From the NCBI GenBank assembly GCA_973895155.1, contig OZ316891.1:32313208-32377207 (forward strand): a stretch of DNA of 64,000 nt. Reading direction: 5' to 3'. Origin of the DNA: Marsupella aquatica. Taxonomy: Eukaryota > Plantae > Marchantiophyta. The notes beneath the pieces were generated by a model. It saw nothing but the letters and a program-made list of their open reading frames with translations, had not been told where the DNA came from and did not search any database. A program made the translations under genes and the position numbers. Of the stretch, positions 3,121-60,743 are shown piece by piece; positions within the stretch are counted from its first letter, which is position 1; each line of letters begins with the position of its first letter.

Positions 3121-3696
3121 ATTTGTTTGTTGGATCTTTTTGGTGGGATTAGCACTGGATTGGCTGCTATTCTTCAGGCATGAATTCCTGTGCGTCGTTA
3201 TTTGTATGTGGAGACAGATGAGACAGCACGGAGGGTCTTATTGCAACATGTGGCTATGTTGGTGGATAGATATCCACAGTTGTTGCCAGTGGATGTTGTT
3301 TGTGGTTATCAACATGCACTACCTGCTGATATTTCATTGTTGGGGGCGGATCATCTACATCGTGTTGGCCCCATTGATTTGGTGATTGCTGGTTGGCCAT
3401 GTCAGGGCCAATCTAGAGCTGGCATTGGGCATGGACTTCATGATCCACGCTCTGCATTGTTTTGGGAGATGTTACGGGTGCTGCGTCATCTCCAGCTACA
3501 TCAGACACAGTCTCCAGCATACATTTTGGAGAATGTGCCATTGTTAGGTGATGATCATAGTCGGATTGTTGCCAGTGTTCACCAGGTGAGGTCTTGGATT
3601 GGACTTGCTGTGTTATTGGATGCTGCACGTGTGGGTTCTCGTGCACATCGTCCACGCTTGTGGTGGACTAATTTGATCCCATGTGAGGTGCTGAAG
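3121..3696 (+). pseudogene. DNMT3-like cytosine-5 DNA methyltransferase domain within the element A polyprotein (motifs I-VIII; truncated by insertion)
   Basis: Motif I LLDLFGGISTG, II YVETD, IV LVIAGWPCQGQS (PCQ 3397-3405), V RSALFWE, VI YILENVP (ENV 3529-3537), VII LLDAARV, VIII AHRPRLWWTNL (cf. DNMT3 AHRARYFWGNL). One in-frame TGA at 3181-3183; motifs IX-X are lost at the TGTCAC junction at 3697. Confidence 0.92.
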
Positions 3697-3998
3697 TGTC
3701 ACTTGCCTATCCAACGATTAATACATGCAAACCATACTTTTCCTTGCTTAAATCGTTGGTATCGTATTACGGGGTCATGGAGGGACGCTATTTGGAGGAT
3801 TTCCACACCTAAGGAGGAGTATGTTTGATTCCGCTCCCGGAAGTGTACTTTTTGATCAAGTCTACCGACTGGTCTCTCCATTTTTGATCAAGTCCAAGGG
3901 ACTGGTCCTACCATCTACAACTCATGCCCACCAGGTGAGTGCTGTCACCACCCCCCTCCTTTCTTGGGCAAGCATACAAACATTTACAATAAGATTTG
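3697..3998 (-). mobile_element. Element X: 3' end of an LTR related to the element D LTR (left fragment)
   Basis: Abrupt junction at TGTCAC (minus strand ...GTGACA). Minus-strand ccgggagcggaatcaaacatac (3819-3840) resembles D-LTR ccggcggcggaatccaaacatac (28676-28698). Continues after Bianca at 22990. Confidence 0.6.
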
Positions 3999-41579: not shown

Positions 41580-41648
41580 TACCAATCCTCGTTCCATTCA
41601 GTATTTTGGAACAGAAACAGACGACTCATATTTTTTAATATTATTGAT
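41580..41648 (-). other. Filler DNA at the left CACTA end, resembling plastid ycf1
   Basis: AT-rich; translates SIILKNMSRLFLFQNTEWNEDW, similar to the recalled Ycf1 motif IIxKNIxRxLLFQxPEWxED. Confidence 0.55.
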
Positions 41649-41659
41649 AAAACAATGTA

Positions 41660-42360
41660 TTTTATGACCAAAACAATGACTATTAATCAGGTCTTTTTAA
41701 CAAAACAATGACGCAATTGTTCTCGTCTTTCCAGACACGTCACAACGGACATTTTGGTCACGGTCCTTTTGGACAAATGACGCTAAAAACATGTGGTCAT
41801 TTCATACTATCCTAAATGACCGTTTTTATGATATGGTCATAAATGTTGAACGGTCCAAAATGACGACACAAATCACCATCGACGGTCAATTGCCGTTGAC
41901 CGTCGATGGTCCCCGTACCCAATCACACAACGACACGTGGCAATAAAAAAACTAATAACATTGGTCATTTTGGACAGTCCAAAATGACGTACATTATATA
42001 ACAAATCAAATAGTGACACGTGGTTCAAAGAGGATTCACCATTTGGCAATATATTTGGGTCATTTTGGACGTGTCCAAAATGACTACAGTATAAACAAGT
42101 CATATTGAGACACGTGGTTCAATTGGGAGAAGACACGTAAAGATACACATTAGTCATTAATGACATGTCTTGAATGACATAAAGTGAGTCATAGTGGACT
42201 TGTTTATAATGACCATGAGAAAGGTCATTGTATATGTCATTCTTTGAATCATTTAGTCTATGTCTTTAATGACCAGAGTTGAGTCATATTGGTCACAAAG
42301 ATAGTTGTGAATAATGACCATTACATCAGTCATTCTAGCTAGTCATTTAGTCATTCAAGC
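41660..42360. repeat. CACTA left subterminal repeats (AATGAC / GTCATT in both orientations)
   Basis: Many aatgac/gtcat motifs, mirrored at 60350-60720. Confidence 0.85.
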
Positions 42361-42722
42361 CAATCATTCAGACGAAGTATTCAATGATTTGGAGAAATTC
42401 AAATTTAAGTGATCATGATAGATAAAACTTGATGTCAATCAAAAATCATATATTACAAAGCCATTCAATAGAGTTGCTAAATGAAAACTTAAAGAAACAT
42501 TCGATATATATCACAAATCCAATTGATATTCATACAAGATACCTTCATAAGTCTCACGGTAAATATTGAACTCAATGCAAATTTATGAAACAAAATTACA
42601 TTGACATCAATAATATTAGATTGTCAATTGTTACAACCTGACATACCAATCACTCTGCATGTTTATAGAAAAACAGAGTTGTCATTCTATCATGTCTATT
42701 GTTTCTTGATAGAGTGCTATTT

Positions 42723-45560
42723 CTATTGCTTCTTAAGCAATCTAGAGTTCCATAGGGCATTCATCCCTTTCACATCAGATAATTTAGACTGGTTCTCCCC
42801 TGAATTGGCAAATGGCAATGCCACATCTACAAACACTTCAATCACACGCACTCGCAAGAAAGGGCTTTCAAAATCTGCACAATGAAACTTATCTTCTCCT
42901 GGCAGCCCTGTCACCTCACCTTCTGCCACTATCATGGAATTGTCCACAACGCTCTTCATCTTCACCAAATCTCCTCTTGCAAACTGTGAACAACACATTT
43001 TGTTAAAAATGCAATAAACAGAAATTGAAAGATAGAAGAACACTCAAATCAAACACACATTTACCTTTGCAACGGGGTTAGGAGACTGCATTGGTTTCTT
43101 CTGTGCAGGTGATGCATTTGCTGAGGATCCTTTCTTCCTTTTCTTCTTTCCCTTTCTAGTTGATGGAGTGTCATCCTGTTCACTTGGAATGGGAGTTTCT
43201 TTTGGCAACTCAGATGATTCTGGGGTTACATCTGGTGTCAACTGAGTCGACTTATCCTCTGGCAACTGAAAGACATCTGAAATGGCTTCTTTGGGCAACT
43301 TAGATGGCAAAAGGTTCACTTCCAATTCAGTTTGCTTTAGAGTACTGTTAGCTGTGTCAGTTGGTCTTCCCTGCGACACAGGAGGCTCCCCTAAAGATGC
43401 TGTCATAAAACACACACAAAAGAAATGCATAAACAAACATGTATACACCAGCAACATATAATCACACTAAAAACATGCAAGAACATTATAAACATGCAAT
43501 GACATATACACATCACAATAATTACATTGAATGGACAGTGTATACATGATAGAGAATTTTACCTTCATTATCGCCTGAAAAAGTAAGAGATCGCTTTCTA
43601 CTACCTTGTTTGGTAGTTGTAGTCAACTTACTGTGACTAGGCACAACTGTTGGAACTTGTGCATTACTGGGGTGATGTGCCATCCACGTAGTCATCATGT
43701 TTGTCAACTCCCTCACAGTGCCTTTCAACTCAGCGACATCCAATTTCACAGCCCCAATGGCAGTGATCTCTTCTTTTGAATGTGGGGTCTGTAAATGAAC
43801 CACAAACCAACACAACAGTCTCACTGTCAAACTTACAAACGACACAACACTGGCTCTGTCAAATGGAGAATGATGTACAAATCAAATTGGTATGACAATA
43901 CTCACAGCTGATCCATGTCTGTTTCCTTGCCCCAGTAAGCTAGCACTTTTACCCTCCCCACTTGCCAATGATGGGCTCACCTTTGCTCCCACAAAACTAC
44001 CAGTCTGACCTTCTGCACTTGCCAATGATGGGCTCATTGTCACCTTTGGCAATGAACCCTGACTACCATGGTTTTCTTTCAGGTCAGATATACCTGGGCT
44101 TGATCCTCTCTTCTGCTTCTGTTCAAACACACAATGAATGAGAAATCACAGAGTTTGTTTTCATCAAGATTCACAAACAAGACAGAATTGATAGTGAAAA
44201 TGATAGACAATTTACCATTCTCTTTGCTGCTGCAGCATGCCCTCCCCTTCCAAAGTGAGAGGTATCTTGCACTCGTGCTCTTTTATCAGTCATCTGTTTA
44301 CTCAAAGATATCAATGCTGGACTGGTAAAATGAGATACCAAAGCTGCCCATTTCTTTGGATCAACACCAGATGGCCCAAGTTTGGTTGGATCCTCATTGC
44401 AAACTTTCTTCCAATAAACATGCATTTTATGGCGCTCTCTCTTCAATATGCCACGACAATGACTCTGGAATTTGGTGTTAATAAATTCCCCACCCACATA
44501 CTCCCACTCAGCTGCCATGTTATTCCACACTGTGGTTGTATGAACTTGTGGATGATCAGTCCATTTTGGCTTTGATACATCAAAGACTCTGAGTACGTTG
44601 CCACGAAGTTCCTCCAGCCAGTATTGTTTGTTGCCATCAGAATCATCAATATCATTGTCATAAATCTGCATTTCATAGACAATGTCAGATCATAACTCTG
44701 GAATTTATGCAGAGTCCAGGTTTTATACACACAACAACAGAGAGGATCAGATTTGTCTAAATCTACAAACAAGTACAATACTCACTTTAATGTGTTTGGG
44801 CACCTCTCCGCAATCCCTTCGTTGTTTGGCAGTATTATCAAACTGCTTCTTAGCATGCCTTCGTTCCCTGCGCATCTCAGAGGCCCCTCCTGCAATGCAC
44901 ACACATGCATTCAATCAAAAAATATGTACATGATTGAAAAGTTGAGCAAATGTACTTGCATATGCAACACGAGCAGATTGTGTATTACCTGAAGATCCTC
45001 TGGAATGTAGTACATCAGATTGACCTGATCTGCCTTCAGATGCTGATGGAACCACTAAACAAACACACAACACCAAAGCACTTCAATTAATTTCATTTCC
45101 AAGTAGAATATCAACTTCCAAACACACCTGAAAAGTAGAACAGTACAATCCACTCACTTTCATATAAGAGTCCAGTGTCTGGGTCTTTCCAACATCTCAC
45201 TAGCCCACCTCCACCAGGCCCAGTCTTCTTAGGACCACAATTTTGTTTCTGTACCTACATCATGGACAACGTAAGCATATCAACATATAATTTGAAAAAG
45301 GGACAAGGATCCCTTCCTATTAGGATGATGAAGTTCAAGCATTACCTGTTGTGCACTCTCTGGTTCTGACCCTCCAATGTCAGAATCCTCAGTGTCATAC
45401 TCAGAAGGAGAACCATAGCCATCATCACCAAACTCTGCCATGTTCACCTTGGTAACTTCTGATAGTCTAGAGCTCCTCCTCTTTGGCAATGTTTCAGTTG
45501 AAGTACCTTTCACCAAAGCAGGCTTTCCTCTCTCTCGTTGTACATGTGTGGTTGGGCCTC
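42723..45560 (-). CDS. CACTA TnpA/Tnp1-like multi-exon gene (exon limits approximate)
   Basis: Ptta/En/Spm-like KWAALVSHF..QMTDKRARVQDTSHFGRGG (44171-44671); terminal exon VAEGEV..FHC..LRVRVIEVFVDVALPF (42723-~42985); short exons separated by T-rich GT-AG introns. Confidence 0.75.
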
Positions 45561-45988
45561 TAAGGAACAAAGCAATCATCAACATACACCAATGCAGATC
45601 AAACATACATGCAAAATGAATCTACAACACCATAACACTAGTACTTATGTACAGGATCCATACTAGTATGAGACCAATCTGGAATATGAAAACAGAACAT
45701 GAACCTGACAACTCCATCTACTGAATCAAATTTGCAATAGACATATCAACACACACATCAGCTTGCAGTCTGGCCCCAGTCCTAGATCACGCATAATTCT
45801 GACATTATGCTCTATGTTCCGATTTCGGGCCTCCTCATAAGGATTCACAGAATGTGACAACCCTTGCAATCTTCCTTTCGCAGGCTGCATTCACCAACTG
45901 CACAAATGGATAAACCATTAGTCTGATTTCATAAATAGTCCATACATGTAGTCCATCTATGGACTTCACACACCTAGCTAAAACCTAT

Positions 45989-48900
45989 TCACTGCTTAGG
46001 CCTGCCCTTTCTTGCAGATCCCTCTGCATCTCTGCCTCGTTTGGGACCAGTACTTGGTCCTGGATTTTCTCTGGACCTACAGGCCTTAGCCAATTCGATG
46101 TGTAATTTGACATTGTTTTCCATTGTAGCATGGAAATCAACGTCTGTGTAATCACCTAACACCCTTGTGGACCTGGATTCTTTGTGGAGGATTGTTCTCC
46201 ATGCTATCCCCTTCTCATTGGGGTGGAAGAAAACCTGCTCCACTTGCTTTGGGAAAACGTAATCCATTTTCTTGGACACACCCAGTTCTCTATGGAAATT
46301 CACCTGCCAAAGACCAGACTTGGTATACCTCATACTGGCAGAGGATTTAGGAGTCCATGATGGATCTGCCCATTTCCCTTTGAAAAGAATCACCTCTTTC
46401 CTCAAGCTGCCATAATTCAGTACCAAGATATCTGTCAAGGCCCCTACATACTGTACAGATTCTTCTATGGTTGCACCAGACCTGTCCACTCGCTTCTCAG
46501 TGAATGTAGAAGCCATCCCAGAATCAAAAGTGCTGAAAGCACCAGAATCACAATCACTCAAACACCCCAAGGATGGAATAGTCCTCCAATGGTGCCCATA
46601 GGCTCTACATGCCCTATACAGTCGTGCCTTCAAACTAGGTGGTGTGGAGTATGCAGATAGTAATGACCGCTCAGACTCTTTCTCAAAATTATGGGTATTG
46701 ACTAATGTTTGAAACCATTCCCTGAAAGGTGGCAATTCTTGGCAGTCTACGGGAAATTCCACTGGTTTTCTTCGATTGGTAGGCTTCCTCATCCACTCCT
46801 TCCGGAAATCCACTCTTCGTTTGGTAACAGTCTCATTGGTAGCATCATATATCCTGCATGGCAACAACAACACTGAAGACATTAGTGCACGATCCACCAT
46901 GAATATACAAACACAATGGGGAAACATAATTATGATCCATATGCCTAAGGATAGGAGAGTTTCTAGGGTTTATGTACCTATACCATGGAGCCACTGTCTC
47001 TTCATTCTCTAATATATAATGATGCATGGCCATCATTTCAGACCAATCCAAAGTTATCGCCTTTGCAGCCCCTTCCAAAACAATGCCTGCAACGCCAGCA
47101 TCCTCCTCCAACTCCCAGGTTCGTTTTCCCTCTCCCTTTGCATCAATCATGTATTCAGAAAGAAATCCCAAAGACTCATCTAATACATAGCCTTCAGCCA
47201 TAGAAGCCTCTGGACGTGCCTTGTTTCGTACATAACCCTTCAATACCTTCAGGTTCCTCTCTATTGGGTACATCCATCTGCCTGTAACTGGGCCACACAA
47301 GTCTAATTCCTCCACTAGGTGAATCATTAAATGGGTCATGACATCAAAGAAGCTTGGTGGAAAATGGATTTCCAAAATGCAGAGAGTGAATGCAACATCC
47401 ATCATCAAATTCTCATACATTGAAGGGTCCCACACCTTCGTACAGATCTGGCGATAGATATTGCTCACCCCAGCTATGGCCAAGCGAACCCCTTCATCAA
47501 GTAATCCCATTGTTGCCAGAGGGAGAATCTGTTGCATGAGTTGGTGGAAATCATGTGATTTCAACCCAGAGAGTTTCTTGGATTTTGTAACACACTTTGC
47601 CAAAGAACTTGAAAAACCAGTGGGCCCTTTCAAGGTCAATAAAACCTCCAAGAACCTTGTTCTTTCCTTCTTGCTCAGGCAATATGGGGCTGGGGGCATC
47701 AACAATTTGTCATCCTTACGCTTGGGAGCTGGATTGGGTACAAGCCATAGGTGTTGGCGCACCTGTAAGAGCTTCATGTCTTCTCTCACAGAAGGAGTGT
47801 CCTTGGTCCCAATGATAGTGTGCACAATGTTGTGTGCAAGATTCTTCTCACAGTGCATGGGATCTAGACAATGGTTAATGAGTAGTTTCTGCAGTGGACA
47901 CACAATTCAGAAATTAGGGCATTGAATACAACTTTTGGCATCACTGGGCAGTAGTTTGTGCAGTGGACACAATTCAGAAATTAGTGCATTGAATACAACA
48001 ATTACAAAATCTGGGCTACAGGAAGTATATGAAGAGAATATATTTCAAAGTCATATGAAGAGATTGCAGAAATTCATTGTAGTAGTATGGAGTCTTACAT
48101 TCCAATAGGGCAACTTGTACAGACCAGTAGCCCTCTTCACTCCATGCACCTTTATGGGGCATTTCTCATCCTCAACCTTGGTTCCTCCCTTCTTCAAATA
48201 TTCTGTTGTCTCGTCTCCCCACTTCTTTCTATCAGAGCTTGTCATTCTACACGGTGCAGGTCGACTCTCAATTGCACCATCAAAGTATTGTGCACTATCT
48301 GGTCTACGAAAAAGATGCCTTGTTGCTAACCATCGACGGTGGCCACTGTACTCTAATTTCTGCAAGTGCTTAGAACCACGTGCCACACATTCTGGCCCAC
48401 AGATGACACATCCTTTGTATCCAGAGTGTTGTTGTCCAGATATTAAACCATATGCAGGGTAATCATTGATTGTCCACAATAGCACAGCCCTAAGGTTGAA
48501 GTGTTGAGACAATCCTGGGCGTGGCAATTTGTCAAAGCAGGGCACTCCTTTCTTCCACAACAGCTCCAACTCCTCATAGAATGGGCCCAATATTATGTCT
48601 AGCTGTTCCTCTGTTACTGAATCAGGTCCTGGAATCAGCATAGCTAGCATGACAAAGAACTTCTTGGTGGTAAGCCAAGGAGGTAAATTGTAATTCAACA
48701 ACAGTATTGGCCAGGTAGACCAAGCTGTGGAATTATTCCCAAAGGGATTCACCCCATCAAGTGCCAACCCAAATCGCACATTCCTTGGTTCAGCTGCAAA
48801 TTCCCGATCAATATTTGTATCCACATGCTTCCAAGCCTTTGAATCTGCTGCGTGCCGAACCATGTTGTCTGTGCTTCTATTCTCATGATGCCAAGTCATG

Positions 48901-49982
48901 AGTTTAGATGTACCAGCAGTGGCATACAATCTCTTCAACCTGGGAATTATAGGGAAATACCGCACTACCTTCCTTGCCTGTAATGAATTCCCCACTCTCT
49001 TCATCTTGGGCTGCTGACACACTGAACAGTTTTCTAACTTGGCATTCTCACCCCTAAAGAGCATACAACCTTTCTCACAGACAGGGATTCTCTCATAATC
49101 CAAGCCAAGCTTTCTCAATAGCTGCTTTGCAGCATATAAGTTCTTGGGCAGATTATGCTCTGTAGGCATACCATGCTCCCCCATCAAAGACAACAATGCA
49201 TTCACTCCTTTGTTTGAGAATCCATGGCCATGACAGATGTTCAGCAGAAGCAACATGAATGACACAACATCTATTTTGCTGCCTGGGAACAAAGGTTGCA
49301 TTGCTGCATCTAAAGATAACTGTGCAGGATCAGTCTCCACAGGAGTTTTGGAGGTTTCAAGGGGGTTTACAGGATGGGCACCTCCTTCACTCTCATCATC
49401 CCCAAGTACAAAATCCAAGTCAAAACGGTCCTGATCATCTAGCTCATGCTCAGGGGATTCTTCACTGGTTCTCAGCAACGTTTCTTCCAGTAGAGCCCTG
49501 ATATGTTCTTCGACATCTATAGTTGGATGTTCTTGAACATCCACAGTTGGATACTCTGGAACATCCACAGTTGGATACTCTGGAACATCTACAAATAAAT
49601 GTTCTTCAACATCTACAGTTGGCTGTTGTGCACAGGTTGCCTGCTGAAGGTTTGCTACCCTCAATGCCTCAGGGCCATGTTGTGACATGTAGTCAGCACC
49701 CCACTCTTCATCAGAAGAGTCCTGTCCCTCTCCCACCCACACTCGACATGCAGGGTACCGACCATGTTTAATAAGGTGCAGTCTAGCAGTATTCCGATTA
49801 GTCCTATAATTCCCTTTGCAGTTCACACAAGGGCAGTACATCTTATGGTCCCCACTCTTGTGGCAGGCCTTCTGTTCTCGAACCCACAAAGCATCATCAC
49901 GATGTTGTACTCTAGCTGGATGGAAGAGCGGCAACTTTGGAGTTCTACCCACACCTAACGTATTCTGTGGCAATTGTGCCAT
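45989..49982 (-). CDS. CACTA TnpD/Tnp2 transposase; predicted join(49982-48099, 47888-46978, 46853-45989), 1219 aa, no stops
   Basis: CPCVNC zinc region, RYFPIIPRLKRLY, HAADSKAW, LALDGVNPF, YNLPPW, WTINDYPAY, LDPMHCEKN, GLKSHDFH, FFDVMTHLMIHL, WMYPIER; GT-AG junctions keep the frame. Confidence 0.92.
49515..49625 (-). repeat. 24-bp coding tandem repeat (PTVDVPEY-like, ~4-5 copies) in Tnp2
   Basis: acatccacagttggatactctgga and variants. Confidence 0.8.
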
Positions 49983-50579
49983 GCTAGCTTGATTGAAATT
50001 GTATTCAAACTATGATTTTCAAACTGAATCAGAGTGACATGCATACAAAATTGGGCCTACCGTCACAGTTGTACAACCGATGCCAACCACAGTCCAATTG
50101 CTCAAACCCACAGAGCCCAGTTTCTCAAATCCACTGTAGTAGGGCACCTTCTCCTTGCATACAAATAGAGCATCACATACAGTGTCATCAGAATGATACT
50201 ATGAACGTAAATCTCTGTGCCTTCATCATTTCCAGTATTTGTTTGCCTATTAGGAATGTGAGCAGACAGGTCTGGAATAAGTAACGTTTGTGACACCAGT
50301 GACAAATTTACAAGTGAAGTTTAGACATCAATATGGAGGAAAGTCACACTCAAAGTACATGCTTGAAAATCAGAATCCTACCCTGGAAAAGATAATAAAG
50401 TTGATTTCTCAAAATTAATTGCCTCAATCCGCAATGCACTGTCGTAGAGTGTGTATACATGAGGAGTTCATCAAACTGCATATAAATAGTCCACATGTTT
50501 TAGCACTCTGAAAATTGTTTAAGTCCACGTGAAACCATCAAAAAGCTCTATCTCAAGTTTGTGTTCGATCCAGCCTCAA

Positions 50580-51239
50580 TCAAATCCAAGATATGTGGCT
50601 CCTAGCAGGAGTGCCTAGTGTAGGGTCAATGTCATGGTCAGGACAGTAAAACATCCCCTTCTTGGACTGCCCATGCGCTGAGTGATCCCAAATTGTTCGA
50701 TCATGGGCAAATCCCCTCTGCTGGATAAACAGCAGGCAGTCTTTGTGCCATGCCTTAGGACACCTCATGCACTGAACCAAAAAGCCATTAGCCCCATCAT
50801 TGGGCCCCTGTCCACAAGTAAGACAAATATGGAGTCCACATGATGCTGTGCCAGGAACCAAACACTGCCGACAGTAAAACCGGGCACAGAGAGAGTCTGG
50901 ACATTTTCTTACCTCTTCACCAATTTTTCCAGACACATGGCACTTAAAGCAAGAATGTTCCTCATTCTTGCAATCAACACAAAGCCATTCTCCAACATGG
51001 CCATCAGCGAGGGATATAGTTGGGCATAGCCATTGCTGACCCAAAGGACAGGAAACATTCTTATGGAAATGTCGGTGGCAAGGCCCATCACAAACAATGA
51101 GATCCCCTCCCTCATCACAAATCGCACATACATGTGGACTATTCTGGTTAATCTCAATGTCTGAATATAAGGACAATTGAGGTGCTTGAGAGGATTCACC
51201 TCTGCAACGATTCATGGCCTTCTGCTTATTGCGAGCCAT
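50580..51239 (-). CDS. EDM2/NSD-like multi-PHD-finger protein inside the CACTA (219 aa) with an H3-tail-like N-terminus
   Basis: ATG at 51239 after tgcag|gacc; MARNKQKA; CAICDEGGDLIVCDGPCHRHFH..WLCVDC, CFKC..C..CARFYCRQC, CGLHICLTC..CMRCPKAWHKDCL, FYCPDHDIDPTLGTPARSHI. Confidence 0.85.
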   Translation of the reverse strand: MARNKQKAMNRCRGESSQAPQLSLYSDIEINQNSPHVCAICDEGGDLIVCDGPCHRHFHKNVSCPLGQQWLCPTISLADGHVGEWLCVDCKNEEHSCFKCHVSGKIGEEVRKCPDSLCARFYCRQCLVPGTASCGLHICLTCGQGPNDGANGFLVQCMRCPKAWHKDCLLFIQQRGFAHDRTIWDHSAHGQSKKGMFYCPDHDIDPTLGTPARSHISWI

Positions 51240-53599
51240 GGTCCTGCACACTCAGACCCTACATCAGATTGTGAAACAAGAAGGAATAACAGGGTGCAGT
51301 ATGACACAAAAGAATGAGGGTGCAGCATAAAATATGACATGTAACCACAAGGGTGCAACATAAACCAATGCTTTATAGATGGCAAAGCATTTAGGACTGA
51401 GCAGCGCAAATAACCTTGGCCTAGATGATTGGAAGCAATCACAAATATTGCAACCTGTATGCCTTTGCTTGCTGTACAGCAGTGCTCACTCACCCTGCCT
51501 TTTTAAAATCTGTAAGGGCAACACAGAAAAAATAGCAATTGAGTTTCAGCAAAGCATTCATTTGGCTCTCAAGTTTTAAAATGGACAGAGCAAACACAAC
51601 AATGTGCACAACAAAGCACAGAGAGCAACAAAACTCCAGCAAACTGGGACTCAGGCAAGAGATACGAATTTTAGCAGCGAAATCAAATCAAGATTCGGAC
51701 CTGTGAGTTCAACATGCAGTGCTCACTCACCCTGCCCTTTTTTAAATCTGTAAAAATCAAGTTTTATTGTGTGCCTTCTACATCTTAAGCTGCTGCACAC
51801 ATCTGTTACAGAACCATAAGTTGCTTTACTCTCAACAAGCTGCTGGTCCACCCACTTTTTCAAAAGCTGCACCGTACTCTATCTTCGTGCACAAATGACT
51901 ATACCGGGCTGCTGTCAGAGACCCTTACGAAGGATTTAAAATTGACCAAGCTGATTTTAGTTTAGTTTTGTCCAGTTTGCAGACCAAAGGAAATCATGTG
52001 GCTGTATTCATGGAGTTGTATTCATTGCTGTGTATGGATGTTGTGTGAACATCAGACAGTTAGCTGTAAATTACCATAGTTGAAGAGCAAGGCTTGTACA
52101 AAAGCCACTAAGGAATTCTCTGAGGTGGCACAGCAGTTGGCAAACCACACACGAAACTCTGAAACTTTTTGGCGACAAAATTCTACAGAGTCGCTGCTGG
52201 AATCAAGTGAGGATTCACCATACATGCTTGCACTTCTCTTCAGTAAAAAAAAGAGAAAAGAAAAGGGCTATGATACAGAGGGATGTCAAAAGAAGAGTAA
52301 GGAAACCAATTCATTGAGGAACATAGACAGACTAAGGAAAACATCATACAATGGAAAACTAAGGACTACATTGTAATAATAAGAGATCAAGCTCACCTTG
52401 CACCACAAACATTGTCAGACGACAACAAGACAACAAACTGAATTGAACATAGCAGACAAATCCAACAAGTAGCAATCAGAAATCAACAGCAGACAGACAA
52501 AGGACAACTTGGTCAGAACTCGGGCACTTGATTCAGTTGTGGTAAATAGCTGTTCAGGTTCTGGACAAGCAAGAGCAATACGTGAGCAGACTCCAGAAAA
52601 ATCATCTCTTGAGATTGAGGAGAAAGGCATTTCCCAGCCAGCTTACTTATGTCTTGAAAAATGTATCGGACATCGTGGACGCTGGGCCTCAGCTGCTGGC
52701 CGCAAGGGAAGATTTTGCCAAAACAAACAATAAAGCTCGAAGATAGTTAAATTTCTTAGGTCTTTCTAAATGGGGACTGAATTAGCAATTAGAACCAGTA
52801 AACCCTGATCTTGGGCAGGCAGAGAGAGAAGAGTCCGCGCCTAATACTTATGTCTACCCGAATTTTACTGGGACATATGAGCATTGGGATGCCATTGCAA
52901 AGCAGAATTTTGTAGCAGTGGAAGGAATCAACATAGATAGCAGTGGAAGGTCGCAGTGGAGCTAGCATGGTACAGGGAAGGAAATGCAGGCATTGTGCGA
53001 GAAAGTGCAATGGCTAGTTCTATGGGATTTCCTTCTCCAATCCATGACAGTGCCGACGACACGCACAACTGCTACAATCAGTGCGCGTCCAGGATGCTCC
53101 ATCGCATCACGTCAGGGAACTCAACATTCTAGACATTCGAAAACTGCATTCACATTTCTCTGCAAAGGGAACTCAACATTGTAGACATTCAAAAACTGGT
53201 GCAAAACTCAGGCACTTAGAGAGAGAGGGACAGAGAGAGAGCGAGAAAGAGAGAGCAAATAGTCTCTTAGCAATCGGAGCTTCTCTGTCATTGCCATAAG
53301 CATACTAGCAGACACTAAGCAACAGAACAAGAAGGCAACATTGGATTCATGGACTGACAGCACATTGGTAGCACATTGGCAAAAGCAAAGCAAAAATGCA
53401 GAATGAACAAATGGCCAGAAGGGGAAGAAGCGCAAAATTGCACAACTGACCTTCTCGCACCTCAGCCCAAACTCGCTCCCACAGATATAAGTTCTCGCAG
53501 CTCCTTGATGGAACCTCCTGTAGGTTCTCGCCGATTGCAACTCCTCACCCACAGCTTCTTGCCGATTGTAGCTTGCTGCTGATTGCAACTCGTCGCTGA

Positions 53600-53840
53600 T
53601 TTGCAGCTCGTCCTCCGCTCCTCACCCGCAGCTTATCGCCGATTGTAGGTCGTCCTCCGCTCCTCGCCCGCAGCTTATCGCTGATTGTAGGTCGTCCTCC
53701 GCTCCTCGCCCGCAGCTTATCGCCGATTGTAGGTCGTCCTCCGCTCCTCGCCCGCAGCTTATCGCCGATTGCAGCTCATCCTCCGCTCCTCACCCGCAGC
53801 TTATCGCCGATTGCAGCTCATCCTCCGCTCCTCACCCGCA
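53600..53840. repeat. 42-bp minisatellite, ~5.7 copies, GC-rich, in the CACTA 5' region
   Basis: Unit gcagcttatcgccgattgtaggtcgtcctccgctcctcgccc (starts at 53628, 53670, ...). Confidence 0.92.
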
Positions 53841-54404
53841 ACAATGACAAATGTAAAGAAGCTATTGCCTTGACCCTGCAATCGGGCACTCCAAAGCCCG
53901 AATGTCCTCCAAAGCGCAGGGTCCTCCAAAGAAGCTCCCAAGTCCTACCGAGGTGCTCTGCCGACCGCGCGCAACAAGCTCAAAAACAATTGTAGCCTGA
54001 ATGGCTTCGGGTCGGAGCTCCTCCTCTAAACCTTGCAAATGGTCACTAAAACAATGCCACGTCCAACGCTTCACTCAAACAATGCCTCACCCAATGCTTG
54101 CCCGAACAATGCCTCGCCCAACGCTTCGAAGGGTGTCGAAGCTTGGTGGAATGGAGCACAACGCTGCGCAACCCTAAGCCCTTGCAATGTGCACACAAAG
54201 GCATGCCAAGAAATGAGCACATCGAGCGTTGCCCTCTCGATGTTTTTTCAGGAAAAAGGGCTCCTGTTGGTACGCAAGAACACTTAGCGGGAAAAACCTA
54301 ATGCTAGACCCCTAAAGCCCGTAAAGGTAAGGTATTCTGTTGGATGGGGATGGTGGATATTGTGGGTCATTAATTAGGGTTATATTCTGACAATATCTCT
54401 CACA

Positions 54405-54595
54405 TGTCTGGACCCCCCATAAGGCCCTAGGGAAGTTGAGACTAGGTTAATAACAATGTAAACCCCCCCCCCATAAGGCCCTAGGGAAATACCAACTATA
54501 GAGGTTAATAACAAGGTCCGGACGCCCCCATAAGGCCCTAAGTAGGGAAGGCAAGGTTAATAACTCATAATGTCACGACCCCCCCCATAAGGTCA
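54405..54595. repeat. Four ~55-60-bp repeats with the core C5-9ATAAGGCCCTA
   Basis: cccccataagg at ~54414, ~54468, ~54525 and ~54582. Confidence 0.8.
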
Positions 54596-55099
54596 TGGCT
54601 GTTTGTGTAGGTGCCAACAAGAATGTTAAGGACCAATGTTATATATAAAAAATGATGCTAGCGATATAAAAGGTCCGATATATGCCCGCGATATAAACCC
54701 ATAACCCGCATGCATGAACACCATTTTGGACTACCTTATTGTCTCACCATATGATAGTGATACTCATCCAAATATTAGCATTTAATAGCTCTCCACTCCT
54801 GACTCAATTGAGAGAAACCCTCATTCATGACTCAAGCACAATTATAGGGTCCCTTACATGCTACATGACCACTACATATGAGGCTATGTTGTGTAAGAGT
54901 TTTTGAGAGCATTACACCAAAGCATTAATAAGTGAGCCTTCCCATGACTATATGACCTCCAATATGCCAACATTAATGGCTTCCAATATGACAGCGTGAG
55001 TGACCCCACGTTTAGTCCTCAGATTGAAGCACCATTTAATTCACAAATGACCCAATGAACTCCCTTGTACCTCCAAAGAGAACCCCCCAATAGCCTTTG

Positions 55100-58000
55100 T
55101 AAAGACCACATTTCCAGTCATTTGGTACTTCTGACCTCTAGTATGACAACCAAGATTACCCTAATTTGAGGTGTTTCCATTAATGACACACCATGAGGGA
55201 CCTCTCTAATGACCACATATGCAGTCAATTGCTCCAAATGACCTCTAACTGACTACCAAAATGACCCTTATTGTAGTCATTGACATTAATGACACACATT
55301 ATGTGAAAATGACCCAATGAAGAGTATACTACCTCTCGGAGTGCCCCTTTACAATTCCTTTGGAATTTAATAGAATATATCCAAAATCCAAATATTGGCA
55401 CAAACATGACATAGTTATATAGAAGGACATAGTCTTCCACTAGTATTGCACTATATACCTCTTGGAGAGACAAAAACAATTTTTGTATGCATGCCTTAGG
55501 ATGGTATGCATGCATGGTGACACTTTTGGCAAATCACTCCAAAGTTGTATGACTTGGGAGTGATTTCCCCAAGGTTGCATCATCCCTTAAGTAATTGCAA
55601 AAACATGGCTCCAAAGTGCTCATGGTGCAACTAGTGGTTGGAGAATAGTACGGTGGGTATAGTACCCCGCACCTTGTGGAGAGGTTGCCACCTTCATGTA
55701 GAGCCCCATGGCACACTAGGGCCACCTTAAGCTCCTAGACCCAAAAGGGTCATTTCTGATGGTACGTAATGACACCATGAGGGACCTCTATAATGACCCC
55801 ATATGGAGTCATTTGGCACAAATGACTTCCAAAAGGACTGCCAAAATGACCCTCACTGCAGTCTTTGGCATTAATGACACACTATTCCTCCAAAATGACC
55901 CAATGAAGATTACAACACCTACTCACAATGCCTTAAGTCTATTCATATGCAAAATGGAGTATTCCCCATCCAAACACCGGCACAAACATGACACAATTAC
56001 ATCACAAGATGACAACCTTCCATTGGTGTTGCGCTACTTCTTGGAGAGACAAAAAATGGCTCCATTTGCGCTTGGATACGGTGGTATGCATCCATGGTGA
56101 CACTTTTGGCAAATCACTCCAAAGTTGTATGACTTGGGAGTGATTTCCCCAAGGTGCATCATGCCTTAAGTAAATGCAAAAACATGTGTCCAAAGTGTTC
56201 ATGGCACAACTAGTGGTTGGACGATGATGAGTATAGTGTCCCGCACCTAGTGGAGGGGGTTCTCACCTCTATGTGGGGCCCCATGGCACTCTAGGGCCCA
56301 CCTCCAGCCCCTAGCCCCAAACTGGTCATTTGTGCTTCTGCTTAATGATTGCACAAGGGACCCCTCAAATGACCACAAATCCAGTCATTTGACTTATGTG
56401 ACAGCCCATATGACAGATTTAATGACCCTACTTGTAGTCATTGGTATTTATGACACCAATTTTTTCAGAAATGACTCAATGAAGATTACACTACCTTCTT
56501 GAGTGCCCCATCACTATTCATTTGCAAAATAGAATATTCCCCATCCAAACACCGGCACAAACATGACACAATTACATGGAACGACAACAGCCTTGCACTA
56601 CTTCTTGCAGAGACCAAAAAAATGGCTTCATTTCCTTTAGATAGGATGGTATGCATCAATGGTGACACTTTTGGCAAATCACTCCAAAGTCGTACGACTT
56701 GGGAGTGATTTCCCCAAGATTATATCATCCCTTAAGTAAACACAAAAACATGGCTCCAAACTGCTAATGGTGCAACTAGTGGTTGGAGAATAGTAATTAT
56801 AGTATTTGACACCTAGTGGAGGGGTTGCGAGCTCTATGTGGTGCCACATGGCACTCTAGGGCCCACCTCCAGCCCTTAGCTCCAAATTGGTCATTCATGC
56901 TTGTCTTCAATGACTGCACTAGAGACCCCTCAAATGACAACAAGTCCAGTCATTTGAATTATATGACATCCCATATGACCAATTCAATGACCCTACTTGT
57001 GGTCATTGACACTTATGACATGACTCTGTTAAAAAATGACCCAAAGAAGGTCCTAGCACCGCCAGAGAGAGCCCGCTCTACATTCCTTGCAAAAATGGAA
57101 TAATCGTATACCTTTAAACATCAGACACATCATAGAGGGAAGCACCACTACCACACCCATTCCATTGGTGTTGCGCTACCTCTTGGAGAGACAAAAAAGG
57201 GCTTCATTTGCGTTTGGAATAGTGGTATGCATCCATGGTGACACTTTTGGCAAATCACTCCAAAGTCATACGACTTGGGAGTGATTTCCCCAAAGGTGCA
57301 TCATGCCTTAAGTAAACGCAAAAACATGTGTCCAAGGTGTTTATGTCGCAACTAGTGGTTGGACAATGATGAGTATAGTGTCCCGCACGCAATGGAGGGG
57401 TTCTCACCTCTATGTGGGGTCACATGGCACTCTAGGGCCCACCTCCAGCCCCTAGCCCCAAACTGGTCATTTGTGCTTTTCCTTAATGACTGCATAAGGG
57501 ACCCCTCAAATGACCACAAATCCAGTCATTAGACTGATATGACTTTCCATATGACAGTTTTAATGACCCTGCTTTTAGTCATTGATATTTATGACGGTCC
57601 ATTGCTCACATATGACCCAATAAAGGCCCTGGTACCTCCAAAGAGAGCCCGCTTTAGATTCCTTGCAAGGTTGGAATATTCCTCTTCCCTAAACCCGCAC
57701 CCACACCATACAGGGAAGCACGACTCCCCTGCCCATTCCATTGGTGCAGCACCACCTCTTGGAGAACCCAAAAACAACTTTTATTTGCCTTTGTATGTGA
57801 TGGTGTGCATGCATGGCAACACTTTTGGCAAATCACTCCAAAGTCGTACGACTTGGGAGTGATTTCCCCAAAGGTGCATCATGCCTTAAGGAAACACAAA
57901 AACTTGTGTCCAAGGTGTTTATGTCGCAACTAGTGGTTGGACAATGATGAGTATAGTGTCCCGCACCTAGTGGAGGGGTTCTCACCTCTATGTGGGGCCC

Positions 58001-59770
58001 ATGGCACTCTAGGGCCCACCTCAAGCCCCTAGCCCCAAAATGGTCATTTGTGCTTTTCCTTAATGACTACATAAGGGACCCCTCAAATGACCACAAATCC
58101 AGTCATTAGACTGATATGACTCTCCATATGACAATTTTAATGACCCTACTTTTAGTCATTGGCATTTATGACGGGCCATTGCTCACATATGACCCAATAA
58201 AGGCCCTAGTACCTCCAAAGAGAGCCAGCTTTAGATTCCTTGCAAGGTTGGAATATTCCTCTTCCCTAAATCTGCACCCACACCATACCCTAAAAGCATG
58301 ACTCCCCTGCCCATTCCATTTGGGCAGCACTACCTCTTGGAGAACCCAAAAACAACTTTTATTTGCCTTTGTATGTGATGGTGTGCATGCATGGCAACAC
58401 TTTTGGAAAATCACTCCAAAGTCGTACGACTTGGGAGTGATTTCCCCAAAGGTGCATCATGCCTTAAGGAAACACAAAAACATGTGTCCAAAGTGTTTAT
58501 GTCGCAACTAGTGGTTGGACAATGATGAGTATAGTGTCCCGCACCTCGTGGAGGGGTTCTCACCTCTATGTGGGGCCCCATGGCACTCTAGGGCGCACCT
58601 CCAGCCCCTAGCCCCAAACTGGTCATTTGTGCTTTTCCTTAATGACTGCATGAGGGACCCCTCAAATGACAATAATTCAGGTCATTCCACTTATATGACA
58701 TCCAATGTGACCATTTTAATGACCTTTCTTGTAGTAATTGGCATTTATGACGGGCCATTGCTCACATATGACCCAATAAAGGCCCTAGTACCTCCAAAGA
58801 GAGCCAGCTTTAGATTCCTTGCAAGGTTGGAATATTCCCAAACCCTAATCCCACAGCCACACCATGCTAAGAAGCACGACTCCCCTGCCCATTCCATTCG
58901 TGCAGCACTACCTCTTGGAGAACCAAAAAACAGGTTTTATTTGCCTTTGGATGTGATGGTATACATCCATGGTTGCACTTTTGGCAAATCACTCCAAAGT
59001 CGTACGACTTGGGAGTGATTTCCCCAAAGGTGCATCATGCCTTAAGGAAACACAAAAACATGTGCCCAAAGTGTTTATGTCGCAACTAGTGGTTGGACAA
59101 TGATGAGTATAGTGTCCCGCACCTAGTGGAGGGGTTCTCACCTCTATGTGGGGCCCATGGCACTCTAGGGCCCACCTCAAGCCCCTAGCCCCAAAATGGT
59201 CATTTGTGCTTTTCCTTAATGACTACATAAGGGACCCCTCAAATGACCACAAATCCAGTCATTAGACTGATATGACTCTCCATATGACAATTTTAATGAC
59301 CCTACTTTTAGTCATTGGCATTTATGACGGGCCATTGCTCACATATGACCCAATAAAGGCCCTAGTACCTCCAAAGAGAGCTAGCTTTAGATTCCTTGCA
59401 AGGTTGGAATATTCCTCTTCCCTAAACCTGCACCCACACCATACTGAGAATGCACCCACACCATACTGAGAAGCATTACTCCCCTGCCCATTCCATTGGG
59501 GCAGCACTACCTCTTGGAGAACCAAAAAACAACTTTTATTTGCCTTTGGATGTGATGGTATGCATGCATTTATTTGCAAATTAAAATATTCCCCGTCCAA
59601 ACACCGGCACAAACATGACACAATTACAACAAAGCATGACAACCTTCCATTGGTATTGCCCTACTTCTTGGAGAGACAAAAAGGTTTCATTTGCCCCATG
59701 GATACGATAGTATGCGCGCATCCATATATGATGACACTTCTGGAAAATCACTCCAAAGGTGTATGACTCT
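55100..59770. repeat. ~575-bp satellite-like tandem array, ~8 copies, inside the CACTA
   Basis: Anchor aaatcactccaaag at ~55531, 56111, 56676, 57252, 57830, 58408, 58986 and 59745; the units are rich in aatgac/gtcatt. Confidence 0.92.
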
Positions 59771-59849
59771 ACAATTATGATAGGTGTCTGGAATGACTAT
59801 TGAGTATTTTAATCTTCATATCTCTTGGGTTCTTTAATGACTCTATAAG

Positions 59850-60350
59850 TAGTCATTTATGTAATAAGTCCATAATGACTGTATGTTATTGTAAACATTG
59901 ATATATCCTGATTTTTAGATTGCCCTATATTTAGTCATTTATGCGACAAGTCCATAATGACAGTATGTTGTTGAAAACACCGATATATCCTAATTTCAAG
60001 ATTGACTGTGGAGTTAGTCATTTATGAGAAAAGTCCATAATGACGGTATGTTCTTGTAAACACTGATATGTCCTAATTTCAAGATTGACCCTAGAGTTAG
60101 TCATTTATGGCAGAAGTCCATAATGACAATATGTTGTGTAAACACTGATATATTCTCATTTTCAGATTGACCCTAAATTTTGTCATTTATGAGAGAAGTC
60201 CATAATGACGGTATGTTCTTGTAAACACTAATATGTCCTAATTTCAAGATTGACCCTAGAGTTAGTCATTTATGGCAGAAGTCCATAATGACAATATGTT
60301 GTTGTAAACACTGATATATTCTCATTTTCAGATTGACCCTAAATTTTGTC
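59850..60350. repeat. ~83-bp tandem repeat, ~6 copies
   Basis: gtcatttatg....aagtccataatgac at ~59852, 59934, 60017, 60100, 60182 and 60266. Confidence 0.9.
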
Positions 60351-60743
60351 ATTTAACACCGTTGGTTAAAATGACGATAATACATTTTTTGTCATTTATC
60401 ACCGTTGTCCAAAATGATGCAAATAGATTTTTGGTCATTTCAGTCATTGTCCAGAGTGACTATAATGTTGCTAAACACTGATTTATCATTGTTGTTATTA
60501 ATTGTGTCATTTAAGACATGTGTCTAAATTGACCATTTAGGGAAATTGGGTCATTTTGGTCGCATCAGTCATTATAGACATTATACAAAATGACGAAAAA
60601 ATTAACATTTTGTCATTTCAGTCTATTGGTCATTGTGGACAGTCATTCCCCCGTCATTCTTTTTGTGTCATTAAAACTTTTGGTCATTTATTCATCTCTG
60701 TCATTGGGTGATTGGTCATAAAGGGCCCTGTTTTCTTCTAGTG
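60350..60743 (-). repeat. CACTA right subterminal repeats and TIR
   Basis: gtcatt arrays ending in ttttcttctagtg. Confidence 0.9.

What the first reader, a model, noticed from the sequence alone, without database searches (positions are those of the whole stretch)
51195..51239. Histone H3 tail mimic at the N-terminus of the CACTA PHD protein
Seen: the first true ATG (accATGG, just after a tgcag acceptor) gives MARNKQKAM, versus H3 MARTKQTAR: 6 of the first 8 residues identical, including A1, R2, K4 and Q5, at a free N-terminus. Known: viral and cellular histone mimics exist. Inference: the protein carries both an H3 reader and an H3K4-like ligand, which could give autoinhibition, oligomerisation or titration of host H3K4 readers and writers. 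The match is short, so chance is possible.
Basis: partly seen in the sequence, partly recalled or inferred. Interest (0 to 1): 0.7.

Follow-up and report, generated by a model that had tools for sequence, protein, structure and literature searches.

The report
Transposon reader protein with histone-mimic tail
A large plant DNA transposon carries a small gene for a zinc-finger module related to the host silencing-mark reader EDM2, and the protein's first nine residues, like those of most of its relatives, resemble the tail of histone H3, so it likely acts as a histone decoy or adaptor that would help the transposon handle host silencing, though expression and binding are untested.

Summary
The minus strand at 51239-50580 is an intact 219-aa ORF inside a 19-kb CACTA element. 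It encodes an H3-like tail, a short linker and an EDM2-type PHD cassette.

The likeness is not chance. Among 34 stand-alone relatives (mostly 30-55% identical), aligned without H3, R2 is kept in 29, K4 in 28 and A/S7 in 28, while the linker drifts. H3 1-9 fits this profile better than all but 15-17 of 22,680 permutations after offset correction. An 82%-identical relative matches H3 at 7 of 9 positions.

Limits:
- The motif follows Met directly in only 15 of 34 rows; 16 have 2-7 extra residues and 3 are cut.
- A1-R2 may be inherited from host EDM2-like starts, though positions 3-9 still fit H3 (4 of 1260).
- No RNA confirms the start codon.
- The first PHD has lost an acidic residue that EDM2 keeps.
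- Only this window shows the gene inside a transposon.

Best reading: a transposon-borne H3-tail mimic on a captured heterochromatin reader, probably engaging host chromatin factors. Ten literature searches found no such case.

The parts
51210..51239 (-). Start Met plus H3(1-9)-like tail (A1 R2 N3 K4 Q5 K6 A7 M8 N9)
   Evidence: family conservation; predicted disordered
50580..51239 (-). Intact single-exon ORF, 219 aa (P0001): tail, variable linker (about residues 11-24), EDM2/NSD-type PHD cassette (about residues 25-219)
   Evidence: PHD_NSD, PHDvar_NSD, PHD-1st_NSD; NSD3/NSD2 E 2e-10 and 1e-7; EDM2-like, E 5.5e-18
51240..51260 (-). Two acceptor-like sites just upstream of the ATG. The nearer leaves 4 nt of leader; the farther would put an in-frame TGA before the ATG
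   Evidence: predicted from sequence only
51494..51509 (-). Putative 16-nt ATG-free leader mini-exon, copy 2 of a short duplication
   Evidence: predicted only
51731..51747 (-). Putative 17-nt ATG-free leader mini-exon, copy 1
   Evidence: predicted only
45989..50009 (-). CACTA/En-Spm transposase (TnpD-like) exons: Transpos_assoc, Transposase_21, DUF4218, DUF4216
42723..45621 (-). Multi-exon second transposon gene, TnpA-like by position (no Pfam hit in 4 of 4 pieces scanned)
   Evidence: identity inferred
60715..60743 (-). 5' terminal inverted repeat beginning CACTA
41580..60743 (-). Whole CACTA element, about 19.2 kb, inserted in a copia RT gene with a TAA target duplication (60746-60744 and 41579-41577). 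The inner part of the 3' repeat is at about 41669-41649; its last bases are replaced by about 70 bp of other sequence
   Evidence: loose ends at 41580 and 41651

Best explanation
This CACTA transposon carries a stand-alone gene whose protein joins an EDM2-type PHD cassette to a conserved N-terminal tail resembling histone H3 residues 1-9, and the tail likely works as a histone mimic that would engage host H3-tail readers or enzymes while the cassette likely tethers it to silenced chromatin. Shown: the gene, its place in the element, its kinship with EDM2-like proteins, and conservation of the tail in H3 register. Inferred origin: capture of a host EDM2-like gene, which already began M-A-R, loss of everything but the start and the PHD cassette, then gain and retention of K4, A7 and basic residues 8-9. 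Inferred action: the cassette binds H3K9-methylated chromatin as EDM2 does, and the tail acts there as a decoy substrate or adaptor for host factors that read R2/K4 and A7-R8-K9. That would favour expression or full-length transcription of the element. About half of the family tolerates extra N-terminal residues, so the common partner is more likely one that accepts an internal motif (a SET-domain or demethylase enzyme, or a WD40 reader such as WDR5; recalled knowledge) than a PHD finger that needs the free A1 amine.
For: Family of 34 short proteins, one clade with SH-aLRT 100. Column counts from a MAFFT alignment without H3, of 34 rows: A18/S9, R29, P14/K5/T3, K28, Q6/V6, K17/V8, A23/S5, K13/R9, K13/R7, with a poorly conserved linker behind. 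H3 1-9 scores above all but 4 of 22,680 permutations, and above all but 1 of 4,222 basic 9-mers from non-family proteins. With re-alignment and best-offset correction: 15-17 of 22,680, and 88-104 after dropping the six rows of the window clade or with T/S at position 3. With A1-R2 held fixed: 4, 5 and 25 of 1,260 for the same three row sets. 25 of 34 arms match at least 4 of 9; shuffled arms give mean 4.1, maximum 11, and 0 of 2,000 shuffles reach 25. P0002 (82% identical) matches 7 of 9 including T3 and K9. Minor contigs in 3 of 4 laid runs carry the T3 codon. A classical NLS pattern occurs in 3 of 34 arms and an AT-hook core in 0 of 34. The tail is predicted disordered and the cassette folded. 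EDM2 has 2.5 atypical PHD repeats and binds H3K9me2 (PMC7529245 passages). It was pulled down by H3(1-21)K9me1/2/3 but not by unmodified H3 (PMC6208443 passage).
Against: No binding, modification, expression or silencing data. The window's own copy matches only 5 of 9 and lacks R8 and K9. T3 is kept in 3 of 34 rows, and T6 is not among the four commonest residues of its column (log-odds at the floor). 9 of 34 arms match 3 or fewer of 9. Host EDM2-like proteins of liverworts and Selaginella also start M-A-R, and one matches 5 of 9 (P0014), so part of the likeness may be inherited. PHD1 has lost the acidic residue kept by EDM2-like proteins (aligned to the AIRE acidic patch), so its H3 specificity may differ from EDM2's. 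Transposon context is shown only for this window. The one other locus obtained (L001, 1867 bp) matched the window only over the PHD gene and has an in-frame stop in the linker. The rows are related and the tests were designed after seeing the motif.
Confidence: 0.5

Rival explanations
1. The tail is an H3 mimic but its partner is the protein's own PHD cassette, in cis (autoinhibition released by a modified histone) or in trans (oligomers).
For: Reader and ligand-like tail are always on one chain, about 25-40 residues apart. PHD1 is closest to AIRE PHD1 among solved structures and keeps the G-G-[DE]-L-x-x-C-D strand. AIRE tolerates T3A but not K4A (PMC5415848 passage), which matches the variable position 3 and fixed K4. 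The nearest host EDM2-like proteins also start A-R.
Against: 16 of 34 rows have 2-7 residues before A1, which would block a classical A1 pocket (pocket requirement is established knowledge, recalled). The acidic patch before Cys1 is gone. The AlphaFold2 monomer leaves residues 1-22 of P0001 below pLDDT 50 and gives no strand in the P0002 tail; this is weak evidence.
Confidence: 0.2
2. The tail is a basic localisation or nucleic-acid-binding arm. M-A-R was inherited from the host EDM2-like start, and the rest resembles H3 because both are short K/R/A-rich tails.
For: At least 9 long host EDM2-like rows start M-A-R. Proline is the commonest residue at position 3 and K/V at position 6. The H3 tail itself serves as an import signal in yeast (PMC5677370 passages). 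Four grass EDM2-like rows start M-A-R-x-K outside the family.
Against: The fit depends on order, not composition: 4 of 1,260 permutations with A1-R2 fixed, 0 of 2,000 arm shuffles. Small residues A1 and A7 are among the best-kept columns. A classical NLS pattern occurs in 3 of 34 arms. None of the long host M-A-R starters has K4.
Confidence: 0.2
3. In this element the motif is internal, because an upstream coding exon is spliced in frame, or this copy is a silent passenger.
For: An acceptor-like site lies 4 nt before the ATG. 5 of 40 hypothetical splice chains put an upstream ATG in frame. One minor subfamily lacks 7 nt that include this ATG.
Against: 35 of 40 chains do not. A Met lies 0-7 residues before the motif in 31 of 34 rows. 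The ATG-less subfamily would be in a different phase at the same acceptor, so both forms cannot be fused to one upstream exon, and it has also lost R2 and Q5 (my reading). The ORF is intact, and the main contig over it has a depth like the transposase contigs (701 against 771-888 in X1; weak).
Confidence: 0.1

Closest known systems
EDM2 (ENHANCED DOWNY MILDEW 2) and EDM2-like proteins of plants
   Same: Same atypical PHD cassette through to its C-terminal Y-C-x-x-H...T-P-x-x-x-H motif. Nearest named rows are liverwort EDM2-like proteins, which also start M-A-R.
   Different: Only 219 aa, with no acidic domains, methyltransferase-like (ELP) domain or proline-rich end. Intronless, inside a CACTA element, on a long branch, acidic residue before Cys1 lost, and K4/A7/basic 8-9 gained in the tail.
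Viral histone mimics: influenza H3N2 NS1 (H3K4-like; PMC12937675 passage) and JC virus Agno (H3K9-like; bioRxiv 10.1101/2024.11.04.621823 passages)
   Same: A short linear copy of an H3-tail site on a non-histone protein of a genetic parasite.
   Different: Here it is on a transposon protein, at or near the true N-terminus, spans both the K4 and K9 registers in the family, and is fused to a histone-reader module. No function is shown.
VANC anti-silencing proteins of Arabidopsis VANDAL (Mutator-like) transposons (PMC5735166 passages)
   Same: An accessory gene of a DNA transposon with a proposed role against host silencing.
   Different: VANC binds specific DNA motifs and its effect is shown. 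The paper's passages describe no PHD or histone-like tail for it. No sequence relation appeared in my searches, and it was not compared directly.
Pack-CACTA gene capture (review PMC13317346 passages)
   Same: Host-gene sequence carried inside a CACTA element.
   Different: This is an intact, old, diversified ORF family (34 clusters) in a transposase-coding element, not a recent fragment. That review has 0 occurrences of histone, PHD or mimic.

Membership tests
Histone H3-tail mimics | Short linear motif matching an H3 tail site beyond chance, on a non-histone protein | tested here: met
Histone H3-tail mimics | Motif conserved among homologues against a variable background | tested here: met
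   R2 29/34, K4 28/34, A/S7 28/34; linker variable
Histone H3-tail mimics | Free A1 amine (needed for classical H3K4 PHD readers) | tested here: inconclusive
   15 of 34 rows have Met directly before the motif (4 of these by my choice of an internal Met of the called gene); 16 are extended; 3 are cut; no RNA
Histone H3-tail mimics | Bound or modified by histone readers or writers | not testable with these tools
   needs peptide assays
EDM2-like proteins | EDM2-type 2.5-PHD cassette | tested here: met
EDM2-like proteins | ELP methyltransferase-like domain and long multi-domain body (PMC7529245 passage) | tested here: not met
   ORF stops right after the cassette, as do its full-length relatives; the search of longer proteins returned only a host EDM2-like protein
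EDM2-like proteins | Binds H3K9-methylated H3 tail | not testable with these tools
   inferred only; acidic residue before Cys1 lost
CACTA (En/Spm) transposon | CACTA terminus, 3-bp target duplication, Tnp2 transposase | tested here: met
   the 3' terminal bases are replaced in this copy
CACTA (En/Spm) transposon | The other family members also lie in CACTA elements | tested here: inconclusive
   only one other locus obtained (L001), too short, no transposase match
VANC-type anti-silencing factors | Sequence-specific DNA binding and loss of methylation at own family | not testable with these tools
   no DNA-binding domain found by Pfam; function needs transgenics
Classical monopartite NLS or AT-hook | K[KR]x[KR] or R-G-R-P core in the arm | tested here: not met
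   3 of 34 and 0 of 34 arms; non-classical import signals not excluded

The most novel reading that the evidence does not exclude
CACTA transposons of an early land-plant lineage captured the host heterochromatin reader EDM2 and rebuilt it into a minimal 'reader plus fake histone tail' protein. It lands on silenced chromatin and presents an H3(1-9) decoy to host K4/K9 enzymes and readers. This would be histone mimicry by a transposon, a counter-silencing route parallel to VANC, perhaps refined from an A1-R2 ligand already present at the start of liverwort and lycophyte EDM2.
Probability: 0.35. Interest if true: 0.85.

Novelty: new variant of a known kind. Interest (0 to 1): 0.68.

Why it matters
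How transposons resist or exploit host chromatin silencing is an open question with few known self-encoded factors. Histone mimicry is known from viruses and some cellular proteins; my ten literature searches found no case encoded by a transposon. Here a 220-residue intronless protein has a reader and a histone-like tail that can be tested separately with peptides and in a liverwort model. Its natural tail variants (free, +2, +6-7 residues; T, P or N at position 3) form a ready allelic series. The M-A-R start of non-seed-plant EDM2 proteins raises a separate testable question about EDM2 itself.

Tried and rejected
Missing data:
- No whole genome is held.
- No RNA holder was listed for 50400-54400; this is no evidence on expression. 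All laid runs were contigs, so no splice or start information.
- Metagenome scan with the 4-row alignment: 74 pattern matches, none confirmed. Scan with the 19-row alignment was not run for lack of a conserved stretch. The pattern scan gave 1 locus.

Searches and predictions with no result:
- phmmer of the first 25 residues of P0002 against PDB sequences: 0 hits at E 10; the match is too short for this method.
- Complex prediction of P0002 residues 2-31 with residues 26-225 plus zinc: no verdict, score 0.02 against a mark of 0.34, alignments not used, controls not folded. Not counted either way.
- ESM Atlas was not reached. VIA-align searches were not run, machine busy.
- An automatic search for paired CACTA ends missed the element because its 3' end is altered.

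Rejected or left open:
- Pure chance: rejected.
- Classical NLS or AT-hook as the conserved feature: rejected.
- Stable fusion to a long protein: not found (weak evidence by the tool's own note).
- Origin of the tail from a captured H3 gene fragment: not tested, no H3 gene DNA at hand.

Literature searches without a matching case; term look-ups in PMC13547354, PMC13317346, PMC11738798, PMC10241880. The library lacks most subscription papers and I read no supplements, so a report in print is not excluded.

Full report
OBSERVATION. The stretch 51239-51195 on the minus strand encodes MARNKQKAMNRCRGE, the start of an uninterrupted 219-codon ORF ending at 50580. Six of the first eight residues equal H3's, or 5 of H3 residues 1-9; the H3 sequence was seen in paper passages. 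The ATG has A at -3 and G at +4 and follows a tgtgcag acceptor-like site by 4 nt. It is the only ARxKQ in the window. For this copy alone the chance of at least 5 of 7 matches after Met is about 1.5e-4 with basic-arm composition.

CONTEXT. The ORF lies in a CACTA element of about 19.2 kb (60743-41580, minus strand). The element starts with CACTA, is inserted in a copia RT gene with a TAA duplication, and has lost its last 3' bases to about 70 bp of other sequence. The ORF is upstream of, and parallel to, the Tnp2 transposase exons. Contigs of four runs cover the element. In X1 the main contig over the gene has depth 701 and three contigs over the transposase exons 771-888, a weak sign that the gene travels with the element. 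No genome is held and no RNA holder was listed.

THE PROTEIN. Residues 25-219 form an EDM2/NSD-type PHD cassette. Pfam gives PHD_NSD and PHDvar_NSD above cut-off. NSD3 and NSD2 are the best solved relatives by sequence. The only hit among longer proteins is an EDM2-like protein. AlphaFold2 folds the cassette (pTM 0.73) and leaves residues 1-22 below pLDDT 50. Foldseek returns PZP and NSD PHD5-C5HCH domains with low TM-scores. PHD1 is closest to AIRE PHD1, but the acidic residue three places before its first Cys, present in 94 of 112 EDM2-like rows, is absent from all 34 family rows.

THE FAMILY. Three searches gave short stand-alone relatives from Logan, JGI, ENA and other assemblies; none of the 12 clusters looked up names an organism. 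I aligned 34. Left out were P0005 and P0157 (cluster mates of P0002 and P0010), P0011, P0065 and P0090 (no N-terminal arm), and P0178-P0180 (weak hits, not family). Only the best 150 of 375 hits were listed. A quick tree of 50 rows, with P0157 in place of P0010, puts the 34 in one clade (SH-aLRT 100, long branch) nearest to liverwort EDM2-like proteins (names). The host is therefore probably a liverwort or related early land plant; this is an inference and long branches limit it.

CONSERVATION OF THE TAIL. MAFFT, given no histone, aligns a nine-residue block at the start. Counts of 34 rows: A18/S9, R29, P14/K5/T3, K28, Q6/V6, K17/V8, A23/S5, K13/R9, K13/R7; the linker behind is poorly conserved. 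The weighted consensus equals H3 at six of nine positions (1, 2, 4, 5, 7, 9). H3 1-9 scores above all but 4 of its 22,680 permutations (5 without P0001-P0003), above all but 1 of 122,626 9-mers and all but 1 of 4,222 basic 9-mers of non-family proteins. After re-alignment with three MAFFT modes and taking the best offset, the figures are 15-17 of 22,680, and 88-104 after also dropping P0025, P0083 and P0177. 25 of 34 arms match at least 4 of 9 positions; 2,000 shuffles of the arms average 4.1 and never exceed 11. P0002, 82% identical, matches 7 of 9. Minor contigs in X1, X2 and X4 have the T3 codon, with H5, while the dominant contigs have the window's N3. These tests were designed after seeing the motif and the rows are kin, so the numbers show that the family profile is H3-like, not how often it arose.

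RESULTS AGAINST OR LIMITING. (1) Position: Met stands directly before the motif in 15 of 34 rows (14 plus P0163; in 4 of them I take an internal Met of the called gene). Two residues intervene in 7 rows, six or seven in 9, and 3 rows start inside the motif or lack it. The 6-7 group falls in one clade (99) together with the cut row P0167, and direct-Met rows occur at the base and in the other main subclades, so a free A1 looks ancestral (not formally tested; P0123 was labelled direct by eye there). (2) Inheritance: long EDM2-like proteins of Marchantia, Riccia, Calypogeia, Selaginella and four unnamed rows start M-A-R, one with 5 of 9 matches, none with K4. With A1-R2 held fixed, H3 3-9 still beats all but 4, 5 and 25 of 1,260 permutations in the three row sets. 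(3) T3 is rare and T6 is not kept; 9 of 34 arms match 3 or fewer positions; the window copy lacks R8 and K9. (4) Start: 1 of 13 direct joins and 4 of 27 mini-exon chains could add an upstream in-frame ATG (rough splice weights of my own). One minor subfamily lacks the ATG. (5) Transposon context is shown for this window only. The single other locus, L001, is short, matches only the PHD gene, and has a stop in the linker.

MECHANISM. Shown: gene, element, EDM2 kinship, H3-register conservation. Inferred: capture of a host EDM2-like gene, reduction to start plus cassette, and selection on K4, A7 and basic 8-9. EDM2 binds H3K9me2 and acts at transposons (PMC7529245 and PMC3632883 passages). It was recovered with K9-methylated but not unmodified H3 peptide (PMC6208443 passage). 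I therefore favour a tethered decoy or adaptor: the cassette on silenced chromatin, the tail offered to host H3-tail factors (0.5). The tolerance of extensions points to partners that accept an internal motif. Binding to its own cassette (0.2) fits the AIRE-like pattern of a variable position 3 and fixed K4 (PMC5415848 passage), but not the extensions or the lost acidic patch. A basic import or nucleic-acid arm (0.2) fits the inherited M-A-R and H3's own import role (PMC5677370 passages), but not the order-specific fit or the 3 of 34 NLS matches. An internal or silent motif in this copy gets 0.1. My confidence that the tail is a selected H3 mimic of either kind is about 0.7.

COMPARISON AND NOVELTY. 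It works like viral histone mimics (NS1, review passage PMC12937675; JC virus Agno, preprint passages) and may serve a purpose like VANC (PMC5735166 passages). It is not a full EDM2 and differs from VANC in anatomy. Ten full-text searches and term look-ups in four papers gave no transposon-encoded H3 mimic and no PHD gene in CACTA elements. I saw search listings and passages only, no whole texts or supplements, and the library lacks most subscription papers. The scan's notes held nothing on this genome or sequence. They hold an unchecked report of an H3-tail plus PHD-like protein in a many-copy fungal gene (e1-9983091) and one case judged coincidental because relatives lacked the motif (e1-7284118); here the relatives keep it. 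Verdict: real, conserved, a new variant of histone mimicry with function untested; interest 0.68.

Noticed in passing
proteins P0012-P0016, P0029, P0030, P0045, P0067: Long EDM2-like proteins of liverworts (Marchantia, Riccia, Calypogeia), Selaginella and four unnamed rows all start M-A-R-[T/V/A], whereas the commonest start of the long rows is M-A-S (19 of 70), often followed by an acidic run. P0014 matches H3 1-9 at 5 positions. Possibly an ancestral A1-R2 ligand in host EDM2.
   Followed up: partly
proteins P0042, P0088, P0122, P0187: Short EDM2-like proteins (Eleusine where named) also start M-A-R-x-K but fall outside the family on the tree (P0042 and P0088 were placed); a possible independent case.
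   Followed up: partly
window 51222 and 51233-51242: Minor subfamilies read T3 with H5, which recalls plant CENH3 N-termini (recalled, not tested). One of them lacks 7 nt including the ATG.
   Followed up: partly
window 41580-41651: The element's last 3' bases are replaced by about 70 bp that other contigs carry in a different context, yet the TAA target duplication is intact.
   Followed up: partly
window 51480-51520 and 51710-51760: Duplicated short segment, each copy with acceptor, 16-17 nt and donor; candidate leader micro-exons.
   Followed up: partly
window 53593-53840, 55000-59500, 59838-60355: 42-bp x 5.9 repeat in the CpG-rich 5' leader (CpG o/e 0.84 against 0.22-0.25 in the ORFs), long degenerate repeats seen by eye, and an 83-bp x 6.1 subterminal array.
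   Followed up: no
window 3184-3828 +: ORF that reads like a C5 DNA methyltransferase fragment (P-C-Q motif) next to a gypsy-type gag/protease; by eye only.
   Followed up: no
L001 670-1340 -: Family member with a two-residue extension before the motif and an in-frame stop in the linker.
   Followed up: partly
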